In this document: positions 7,684 through 7,848 of the stretch, piece by piece
Layout: the number at the start of each line of letters is the position of its first letter
Numbering within the stretch: position 1 is the first letter of the stretch
Origin: Escherichia coli
GTDB lineage: Bacteria; Pseudomonadota; Gammaproteobacteria; Enterobacterales; Enterobacteriaceae
Reading direction: 5' to 3' (one strand)
NCBI RefSeq assembly: GCF_003334765.1
Contig: NZ_QOWT01000001.1
Length of the DNA: 64,000 bases
Translations under genes and position numbers: made by a program
Notes under the pieces: generated by a model
Databases searched by the model: none
What the model was told of the DNA's origin: nothing
Seen by the model: the letters and a program-made list of their open reading frames with translations, nothing else

Positions 7684-7848
7684 ATGCCTTTAATAACACA
7701 TCTTCTAAATGTTGAAGAATTATCCCGCCTGCTGAAGAACGTTGCTCTGAGTGTGATAAACCTTTTTATTCTTGATGATGTCAGCGAGAAGATGGAATAT
7801 ATCCCCGACTGGGTCGTGGTTACCCGGTTAAACATCTGGTGGCGCTAA
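7684..7848 (+). CDS. Hypothetical 54-aa ORF, below the ORF-track cutoff
   Basis: ATG..TAA frame translating MPLITHLLNVEELSRLLKNVALSVINLFILDDVSEKMEYIPDWVVVTRLNIWWR; no recognisable family; may be a gene remnant. Confidence 0.2.
   Translation: MPLITHLLNVEELSRLLKNVALSVINLFILDDVSEKMEYIPDWVVVTRLNIWWR

What the first reader, a model, noticed from the sequence alone, without database searches (positions are those of the whole stretch)
7684..7848. 54-codon ORF missed by the ORF track in the spacer upstream of cobU
A clean ATG-to-TAA frame encodes a protein with a hydrophobic central stretch (VALSVINLFILDDV). It may be a small membrane protein or a fragment of a lost gene.
Basis: seen in the sequence. 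Interest (0 to 1): 0.2.

Follow-up and report, generated by a model that had tools for sequence, protein, structure and literature searches.

The report
Chance ORF in dead transposase remnants
The 54-codon reading frame is real, but it is an accidental open stretch inside the decayed remains of two insertion-sequence transposase genes (the known E. coli K-12 pseudogene yoeG), so it is very probably not a gene and is ordinary.

Summary
The ATG-to-TAA frame at 7684-7848 exists as described. It is not a small membrane protein gene. It lies in a 561-nt internal fragment of an IS66-family insertion sequence (7266-7826; 71% nt identity to intact plasmid copies, E 2e-78). That fragment abuts a 189-nt internal fragment of an IS4-family transposase gene (7821-8009). 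E. coli K-12 already annotates this stretch as the pseudogene yoeG (b4640), with yeeH beyond it.

The upstream tnpC remnant carries four in-frame stops and two frameshifting deletions. The ORF is a patchwork:
- Its ATG is a mutated Lys codon.
- Its "hydrophobic stretch" (aa 13-27) is an out-of-frame reading of the ancestral zinc-finger segment IIPPAEERCSECDKP, between a 1-nt and a 5-nt deletion.
- Its last 8 codons and its stop are IS4 DNA read out of frame.

There is no Shine-Dalgarno sequence. Shuffles of the 1.6-kb spacer give 2-4 ORFs this long. No relative was found in 100,044 species representatives. The DNA is in 73% of complete E. coli genomes at ≥95% identity, and it varies as much as the flanking junk. 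"Fragment of a lost gene" is right; "membrane protein" is unsupported. Interest is low.

The parts
7684..7848 (+). The 54-codon ORF of the finding (ATG to TAA). RefSeq has it as 'hypothetical protein' WP_001128468.1 in some genomes.
7266..7826 (+). Internal fragment of an IS66-family insertion sequence: the 3' end of tnpB, the spacer, and the first ~150-165 codons of tnpC.
   Evidence: blastn against three plasmid IS66 copies gave 71-73% identity over 557-577 nt, E 2e-75 to 2e-78. The alignment is A2.
7288..7347 (+). Remnant of the last ~20 codons of IS66 accessory gene tnpB.
   Evidence: tblastn of TnpB aa 107-126 gave 50% identity, E 9e-4. The DNA alignment is continuous across the tnpB-tnpC junction.
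7384..7827 (+). tnpC (IS66-family transposase) N-terminal pseudogene. Its start coincides with the start of K-12 pseudogene yoeG (b4640, about window 7384-7916). It carries in-frame stops at 7393, 7453, 7528 and 7643, and deletions of 2, 1, 1 and 5 nt after 7566, 7665, 7718 and 7763.
   Evidence: tblastn gave E 6e-22 to 2e-26. The frame-corrected translation is 60% identical (89/149) to intact TnpC.
7719..7763 (+). Segment of the ORF (aa ~13-27, LSRLLKNVALSVINL) that reads the tnpC remnant out of its ancestral frame. The ancestral frame here reads IIPPAEERCSECDKP, the CxxC of the IS66 zinc finger.
7821..8009 (+). Internal fragment of an IS4-family transposase gene (aa 166-228 of a 445-aa protein) with an internal stop. 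The ORF's last 8 codons and its TAA lie in this DNA in a different frame. In K-12 it is the 3' end of yoeG plus yeeH (b4639), split by IS5H.
   Evidence: tblastn gave 75% identity, E 3e-25. blastn gave 78% over 188 nt. NF033592 matched at E 3e-5. PGAP annotates a pseudogene here.
7803..7806 (+). Run of four C that is five C in a minority lineage. This shifts the ORF after codon 40 into the IS4 frame and gives a 79-aa product (P0023).
7919..7922 (.). Target site where IS5H is inserted in E. coli K-12, separating the ORF from cobU by 1.2 kb in that strain.
7323..7351 (+). TGTACA-17-CATGAT, listed in the literature as an RpoD-holoenzyme (genomic SELEX) promoter for yoeG. It lies in the tnpB-end part of the remnant.
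   Evidence: The sequence is. The listing is in PMC3946193. My consensus scan did not call it on the + strand.
8018..8161 (+). C-terminal remnant of a cobalamin biosynthesis gene left upstream of cobU. Identifying it as cbiP is my inference from the Salmonella gene order.
   Evidence: PGAP annotates a pseudogene here. I did not confirm it independently, and NCBIfam found no hit.
8313..8858 (+). cobU, the next real gene downstream. A promoter-like site lies at 8184-8211.

Best explanation
The ORF is an accidental open frame in mobile-element debris and very probably encodes nothing functional.

How it arose:
- Shown: an IS66-family element once sat at the cobU-proximal end of the CP4-44 island. 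Only an internal piece survives (7266-7826), covering the end of tnpB and the first third of tnpC.
- Shown: this piece is joined at 7821-7826 to an internal piece of an IS4-family transposase gene (7821-8009). That in turn abuts the remnant of a cobalamin biosynthesis gene and cobU.
- Shown: the tnpC remnant has decayed, with four nonsense codons and four small deletions.
- Shown: the last 54 codons before the junction happen to be open in one frame. An AAR Lys codon in the conserved R-K-P-L-P motif became ATG. A 1-nt deletion after 7718 and a 5-nt deletion after 7763 sum to 6 nt, so frame 1 leaves the ancestral frame and returns to it without meeting a stop. The first stop is a TAA in the out-of-frame IS4 DNA.
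- Shown: the hydrophobic centre is therefore frameshift sequence, not an evolved membrane segment.
- Inferred: the order of these events, and that the ORF is not translated to any useful product.
For: Homology and structure:
- IS66 homology: tblastn of intact TnpC aa 1-151/165 to 7384-7827 gave E 6e-22 to 2e-26. The DNA is 71% identical over 577 nt, E 2e-78.
- The intact homologues are bona fide IS66 and IS4 family members: NF033517 at 440 bits against a cut-off of 180, and NF033592 at 254 bits against 115.
- Lesions and frame structure come from alignment A2. The frame-corrected translation is 60% identical to TnpC, and it recovers RCSECD where the ORF reads NVALSV.
- The IS4 fragment starts sharply at 7821. 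The ORF's stop lies inside it, in another frame.

Signals expected of a real gene are missing:
- The 30 nt upstream of the ATG are CCAAAAGAAAATACAATACGTCCAGTTTGT, with no GGAG-like motif.
- The ORF length is within chance expectation.
- The 54-aa sequence has no Pfam, NCBIfam or PHROG hit. Its only database relatives are short E. coli/Shigella 'hypothetical proteins'.
- No relative was found in representatives of 100,044 species.

Population and literature:
- The DNA is present in 3,962 of 5,426 complete E. coli genomes. It is absent where the CP4-44 end is absent.
- Variable sites are as dense inside the ORF (4/165) as in the flanking dead sequence (9/464), Fisher p = 0.75.
- A +1 frameshift allele exists in nature.
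- K-12 annotates the stretch as pseudogene yoeG. The locus has been replaced with a cassette on the authors' assumption that it is a neutral site (PMC5013052).
- PGAP calls the ORF in only about 5 of 39 sampled genomes.
Against: - The frame is intact in almost all carriers. The frameshift allele was found in only 2 of 5,426 complete genomes.
- In my six diverged strains, 3 of the 4 substitutions in the ORF are synonymous. Given that all are transitions, P = 0.11, which is not significant.
- An in-vitro RNA polymerase binding site has been reported about 330 nt upstream on the same strand (PMC3946193), so the region may be transcribed.
- I could not inspect ribosome-profiling or proteomic data directly. 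I found only that one held supplement of a small-ORF Ribo-seq study, and the supplements of an Enterobacteriaceae intergenic smORF survey, do not mention it.
Confidence: 0.93

Rival explanations
1. The ORF is an exapted small protein. A transcript starting in the IS66 remnant would be translated from the new ATG into a 54-aa peptide that has acquired a function, for example as a hydrophobic or amphipathic modulator.
For: - The ATG-initiated frame is intact in nearly all of the ~3,960 carrier genomes.
- 3 of the 4 observed substitutions are synonymous.
- Gene callers predict it in some genomes, as WP_001128468.1.
- An RpoD holoenzyme site is reported upstream.
Against: - There is no Shine-Dalgarno sequence.
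- The hydrophobic run has only 11-15 uncharged residues and arises from a frameshift.
- The C-terminus is out-of-frame IS4 DNA.
- The carrier copies are at least 95% identical, so an intact frame is expected under neutrality. SNP density is the same as in the flanks.
- Many rare missense alleles exist, plus indel and frameshift alleles.
- It is absent from 27% of E. coli genomes and from all other species sampled.
- The locus is treated as neutral in K-12 engineering.
- It is not listed in the small-ORF supplements I could search.
Confidence: 0.04
2. The stretch matters as DNA or RNA rather than as protein. It could be an AT-rich silenced spacer, or a promoter or transcript that influences cobUST or the neighbouring receptor gene.
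For: - The spacer is AT-rich, at 39.7% G+C.
- The literature lists RNA polymerase binding sites in it, and flags H-NS for the adjacent yoeH promoter, upstream of this ORF.
Against: - The cobU promoter-like site (8184-8211) lies downstream of the ORF.
- In K-12 a 1.2-kb IS5 separates the ORF from cobU.
- In other E. coli, cobU has entirely different upstream DNA.
- There is no Rfam match, and no terminator-like or extra promoter-like sites beyond chance.
Confidence: 0.03

Closest known systems
E. coli K-12 pseudogenes yoeG (b4640) and yeeH (b4639), at the cobU-proximal end of cryptic prophage CP4-44
   Same: The sequence is identical. The window is 100% identical to K-12 over 7384-7922 and 7919-8012. 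yoeG maps to about 7384-7916 on the same strand and contains the whole ORF.
   Different: In K-12, IS5H is inserted at 7919-7922, downstream of the ORF; the window lacks it. The literature describes yoeG as a 'defective integrase' (PMC5013052). The sequence instead shows an IS66 tnpC fragment fused to an IS4 transposase fragment, with no integrase signal.
IS66-family insertion sequences (tnpA-tnpB-tnpC), such as the copies on plasmids p1RM9088 (WP_040091524.1), CP099096.1 and pSA20121591.1
   Same: The fragment is collinear with the end of tnpB, the spacer and tnpC codons 1-165. It is 71% identical at nucleotide level and 60% at amino-acid level after frame correction.
   Different: Only an internal 561-nt piece survives. 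There is no tnpA, no DDE domain and no element ends. It carries four stops and four frameshifting deletions.
IS4-family transposase (WP_001368890.1, 445 aa, on E. coli IncF plasmids)
   Same: Window 7821-8009 matches aa 166-228 at 75% amino-acid and 78% nucleotide identity.
   Different: It is a 63-codon internal piece with an internal stop. The ORF uses only its first 28 nt, in the wrong frame.
Bona fide small membrane proteins of E. coli (fewer than ~50-60 aa with a single transmembrane helix)
   Same: Similar length, and a hydrophobic patch in the middle.
   Different: The patch is too short and is flanked by acidic residues. There is no ribosome-binding site, no conservation beyond one species, and the sequence comes from frameshifted transposase DNA.

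Membership tests
IS66-family transposase gene (tnpC) remnant | Significant sequence similarity to IS66-family TnpC proteins and DNA | tested here: met
   tblastn gave E 6e-22 to 2e-26. blastn gave E 2e-78. tblastn against plasmids hit annotated IS66-family transposases at about 50% identity, E 1e-24 to 1e-27. The intact partners score 430-440 bits on NF033517, against a cut-off of 180.
IS66-family transposase gene (tnpC) remnant | A direct match of the remnant itself to family profiles (NF033517; Pfam zf-IS66 / LZ_Tnp_IS66) | tested here: not met
   There were no Pfam or NCBIfam hits, even for the frame-corrected 150-aa translation. The PHROG transposase hit is weak, at E 0.015. The NF033517 profile starts at aa 110 of the intact protein, so only about 50 decayed residues overlap it.
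IS66-family transposase gene (tnpC) remnant | IS66 operon organisation, with tnpB immediately upstream of tnpC | tested here: met
   The tnpB C-terminal remnant is at 7288-7347 (E 9e-4), and the DNA alignment is continuous across the junction. tnpA and the rest of tnpB are missing.
IS66-family transposase gene (tnpC) remnant | DDE catalytic domain and terminal inverted repeats, as in a functional element | tested here: not met
   Homology stops at TnpC residue ~165 of 527, at the IS4 junction. This makes it a dead fragment, not an element.
IS4-family transposase fragment (7821-8009) | Similarity to the IS4-family profile and proteins | tested here: met
   NF033592 matched at E 3e-5, profile positions 135-191. 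A 445-aa family member is 75% identical. PGAP annotates a pseudogene here.
Functional small membrane protein | A hydrophobic segment long enough to span a membrane (about 19 or more residues) | tested here: not met
   The best 19-residue Kyte-Doolittle mean is 1.35. The uncharged run has 11-15 residues, bounded by K18/N19 and D31/D32.
Functional small membrane protein | Translation signals (Shine-Dalgarno sequence at -5 to -15) | tested here: not met
   The upstream sequence ...ATACGTCCAGTTTGT ATG has no GGAG/GAGG/AGGA motif.
Functional small membrane protein | Conservation of the frame across species, or purifying selection | tested here: not met
   No relative was found in 100,044 species representatives. 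Within E. coli the copies are at least 95% identical, so this is uninformative. SNP density is equal inside and outside the ORF, and the synonymous excess is not significant at P = 0.11.
Functional small membrane protein | Evidence of translation (Ribo-seq, tagging, mass spectrometry) | not testable with these tools
   Only indirect evidence is available. The ORF is absent from the held supplement of one E. coli small-ORF Ribo-seq study and from the supplements of an Enterobacteriaceae smORF survey. A second Ribo-seq study has no supplement held.
Prophage integrase (the literature label for yoeG) | Similarity to tyrosine or serine recombinase families | tested here: not met
   No integrase or recombinase family appears in Pfam or NCBIfam for the ORF or the reconstructed sequences, and the only PHROG hit is a weak transposase family. 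The sequence is fully accounted for by the IS66 and IS4 fragments.

The most novel reading that the evidence does not exclude
A start codon born by mutation inside a dead IS66 transposase gene has produced a young, E. coli-restricted 54-aa protein whose frameshift-derived hydrophobic core gives it a function. This would be a gene born from mobile-element debris.
Probability: 0.03. Interest if true: 0.45.

Novelty: already known. Interest (0 to 1): 0.05.

Why it matters
It matters little biologically. It explains why this ORF is called inconsistently as a "hypothetical protein" in some RefSeq E. coli genomes (about 5 of 39 sampled, on a pipeline that differs between releases) and shows that those calls should be suppressed in favour of a pseudogene annotation.

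Two small by-products may be useful:
- yoeG is better described as an IS66 tnpC fragment fused to an IS4 transposase fragment than as a "defective integrase".
- The case shows that a hydrophobic patch in a short ORF can simply be a frameshifted reading of a decayed gene.

Tried and rejected
- Family searches on the 54-aa ORF alone found nothing in NCBIfam or PHROGs. Pfam, run on the first 130-aa reconstruction containing the ORF, also found nothing.
- I first asked whether the ORF was the upstream part of the IS4 transposase fragment that PGAP annotates, read in another frame. I rejected this. tblastn and blastn with an intact IS4-family gene show that homology begins sharply at 7821, with nothing upstream. 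The resemblance of MPLITHLLNVEE to the IS4 protein's N-terminus MPLLNDLLDFSD is not significant (E 6.6).
- Family profiles on the frame-corrected IS66 remnant gave no hit in Pfam or NCBIfam. Membership therefore rests on pairwise comparison with profile-verified intact members.
- The word-index protein search found only short E. coli/Shigella ORFs and no longer parent protein.
- The scan of 100,044 species representatives found no relative.
- I looked for an RNA explanation. There was no Rfam hit beyond a chance miRNA match at E 0.32 on the other strand, and no excess of promoter-like or terminator-like sites.
- The literature and supplement searches found no Ribo-seq or small-protein evidence.

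Full report
**Observation.** The + strand has an ATG at 7684 and a TAA at 7846-7848, with 54 sense codons between them. The translation is MPLITHLLNVEELSRLLKNVALSVINLFILDDVSEKMEYIPDWVVVTRLNIWWR. The ORF lies in a 1,644-nt, 39.7% G+C spacer between a yoeA-like TonB-dependent receptor gene on the - strand and cobU (8313-8858), followed by cobS and cobT.

It is not statistically remarkable. Shuffles of the spacer yield 2.3-3.6 ORFs of at least 54 aa on average, and 92-98% of shuffles have at least one. The real spacer has five, and this is the shortest. The other four are on the opposite strand.

**What is already annotated there.** The 1,021 bp around the ORF match 5,404 of 5,426 complete E. coli genomes at least in part. 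The ORF itself is present in 3,962 of them, at ≥99% identity in 3,632 records and 95-99% in 332.

NCBI's pipeline annotates two pseudogenes just downstream. One is "IS4 family transposase" at 7821-8009, noted as having an internal stop and missing both ends. The other is "cobalamin biosynthesis protein" at 8018-8161, missing its N-terminus. In a minority of genomes the ORF itself is called "hypothetical protein" WP_001128468.1. That was about 5 of the 39 full-length hits sampled.

The curated K-12 MG1655 record places cryptic prophage CP4-44 here and annotates pseudogenes yoeG (b4640), yeeH (b4639) and yoeH (b4641), with IS5H inserted between yoeG and yeeH. K-12 is 100% identical to the window over 7384-7922 and 7919-8012, and the 4-bp overlap is the IS5 target duplication. 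By this mapping yoeG is window 7384-7916 on the + strand and contains the whole ORF. yeeH is about 7923-8009.

**What the sequence is derived from.** The 54-aa product has no NCBIfam or PHROG match. Its only database relatives are short E. coli/Shigella ORFs of 33-93 aa, mostly named "hypothetical protein".

Reading the three frames suggested IS66-like motifs, so I tested that directly:
- A hand-joined translation of 7459-7848 hit annotated IS66-family transposases on plasmids at about 50% identity over 92-95% of its length, E 1e-24 to 1e-27.
- Three intact elements were fetched. Their TnpC proteins align from residue 1 to residue 151 or 165 with window 7384-7827 (E 6e-22 to 2e-26).
- The last 20 residues of TnpB align with 7288-7347 (E 9e-4).
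- At DNA level, 7266/7269-7826 is 71-73% identical to the elements over 557-577 nt (E 2e-75 to 2e-78).
- The intact partners are profile-verified family members: NF033517 at 430-440 bits against a cut-off of 180, and NF033592 at 254 bits against 115 for the IS4 partner.

The IS4 piece is a separate fragment. An intact 445-aa IS4-family transposase matches only at residues 166-228, which is window 7821-8009. Identity is 75% at amino-acid level and 78% at nucleotide level, with a sharp left boundary and nothing upstream. The IS66 and IS4 fragments therefore meet at 7821-7826.

**Anatomy of the ORF.** The four-way DNA alignment and the lesion list show that the tnpC remnant has lost:
- 2 nt after 7566
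- 1 nt after 7665
- 1 nt after 7718
- 5 nt after 7763

It also carries in-frame stops at 7393, 7453, 7528 and 7643. With the deletions padded, the translation is 60% identical (89/149) to intact TnpC.

Within the ORF:
1. The ATG aligns with the Lys codon of the conserved R-K-P-L-P motif (AAA/AAG in the intact copies). The start codon was therefore created by mutation.
2. Codons 1-11 read the ancestral frame: MPLITHLLNVE against KALPSHLPRVE.
3. Between the 1-nt and 5-nt deletions (7719-7763) the ORF is out of the ancestral frame. It reads LSRLLKNVALSVINL where the ancestral frame still reads IIPPAEERCSECDKP. This matches VIPADEERCPECNEF and VIPPAEERCPDCDAL of the intact proteins, which is the zinc-finger CxxC.
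4. Because 1 + 5 = 6, the ORF then returns to the ancestral frame: FILDDVSEKMEYIPDWVVVT against FIRNEVSEKMEYIPSQVVVN.
5. The last eight codons (LNIWWR and the two before) and the TAA lie in IS4-derived DNA. The ORF reads it in frame mod3 = 1, whereas the IS4 remnant's own frame is mod3 = 0.

Its uncharged run has 11-15 residues, bounded by K18/N19 and D31/D32. The best 19-residue Kyte-Doolittle mean is 1.35, which is short of a membrane span.

**Expression signals.** The 30 nt before the ATG (CCAAAAGAAAATACAATACGTCCAGTTTGT) contain no Shine-Dalgarno-like motif. My consensus scan finds no + strand promoter-like site between 7200 and the ORF, and overall fewer sites than the shuffles.

A genomic-SELEX study lists an RpoD-holoenzyme site, TGTACA-17-CATGAT, for yoeG (PMC3946193). 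That sequence is at 7323-7351 on the + strand, so some transcription is possible.

There is no Rfam family here. I could not read ribosome-profiling data. The one held supplement of an E. coli small-ORF Ribo-seq study and nine supplements of an Enterobacteriaceae intergenic smORF survey do not contain the ORF, its coordinates or yoeG. This is weak negative evidence.

**Conservation.** A peptide-pattern scan of one genome for each of 100,044 bacterial and archaeal species found no relative. Within E. coli, the DNA is absent wherever the CP4-44 end is absent. E2348/69 has pocR, a cobalamin riboswitch and a 145-aa hypothetical gene before cobU. Strain ET120 has tmaR and a pduV remnant next to cobU.

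Among six diverged carriers, the 629-nt block 7384-8012 differs from the window at no more than 1% of sites. There are 4 variable sites in the 165-nt ORF and 9 in the 464 nt of flanking, demonstrably dead sequence (Fisher p = 0.75). Three of the four ORF changes are synonymous. All are transitions, and one third of possible transitions are synonymous, so P = 0.11.

The 90%-identity protein cluster holds 187 distinct member sequences. The members read include many rare missense alleles: H6L, L7P, V10I, L13F, R15H, R15S, L27I, M37R, M37I, D42N, V45G and W53R. R54C occurs in O157:H7, and indel variants also exist. A +1 C insertion in the C-run at 7803-7806 shifts the frame after codon 40 and gives a 79-aa product. 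It is found in several NCBI assemblies, but in only 2 of 5,426 complete genomes.

So the frame is intact in nearly all carriers. At this level of divergence that is what neutrality predicts, and nothing distinguishes the ORF from its dead surroundings.

[quoted passage not shown] The cobU-yoeG locus has also been used for integration (bioRxiv 10.64898/2026.06.05.730297). The integrase label is not supported by any family search here. The sequence is fully accounted for by the IS66 and IS4 fragments.

**Verdict.** The ORF is real as a string but is best explained as a chance open frame in decayed insertion-sequence debris, already covered by the K-12 pseudogene yoeG (confidence about 0.93). "Small membrane protein" is unsupported. 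The residual possibility that the new ATG yields a functional young peptide is about 3-4%, and it would need Ribo-seq or tagging evidence. Interest is low (0.05).

Noticed in passing
window 4495-6668 (- strand), indel at ~5753: The yoeA-like TonB-dependent receptor gene is split into two ORFs (4495-5673 and 5700-6668). The cause is a 1-nt deletion in a T run, relative to the intact 2,148-nt allele of strain DETEC-P649 (WP_000966624.1). In this window it is therefore a frameshifted pseudogene, unless this is a sequencing error in a homopolymer.
   Followed up: partly
window 8184-8211 (+): The promoter-like site TTGAGA-16-TATATT, about 100 nt upstream of cobU, is identical to the 'constitutive' cobUST promoter listed in PMC3946193. 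It lies downstream of all the IS debris.
   Followed up: partly
window 8018-8161 (+); L019 (E2348/69) 2342-3172; L020 (ET120) 2831-3007: The DNA just upstream of cobU differs between E. coli lineages. This window has a short C-terminal remnant of a cobalamin biosynthesis gene. E2348/69 has pocR, a cobalamin riboswitch and a 145-aa hypothetical gene. ET120 has a pduV remnant. These look like different stages or routes of loss of the pdu/cbi region.
   Followed up: no
L011 (strain F5505-C1) and L013 (strain B1.H1.39), cobU: cobU itself is annotated as frameshifted in these two strains.
   Followed up: no
window 7647-7835, 7345-7533, 7845-8063, 6748-6930 (all - strand): Four antisense ORFs of 60-72 aa lie in the same spacer, and one overlaps the finding almost completely. 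None was examined further. They illustrate how readily ORFs of this size occur here.
   Followed up: no
window ~6857-7015 (+), equivalent to K-12 pseudogene yoeH (b4641): K-12 annotates a further pseudogene fragment upstream. IS66 tnpA and tnpB proteins gave no significant hit there, so its origin remains undetermined.
   Followed up: partly
L009 (O157:H7 strain OK1) 1106-1565: In O157:H7 an intact ISEc8 (IS66-like) element is inserted about 80 bp beyond the IS4 fragment, between it and cobU. The same spot has therefore been hit repeatedly by insertion sequences: IS5 in K-12, and IS1 or IS2 upstream in other strains.
   Followed up: no
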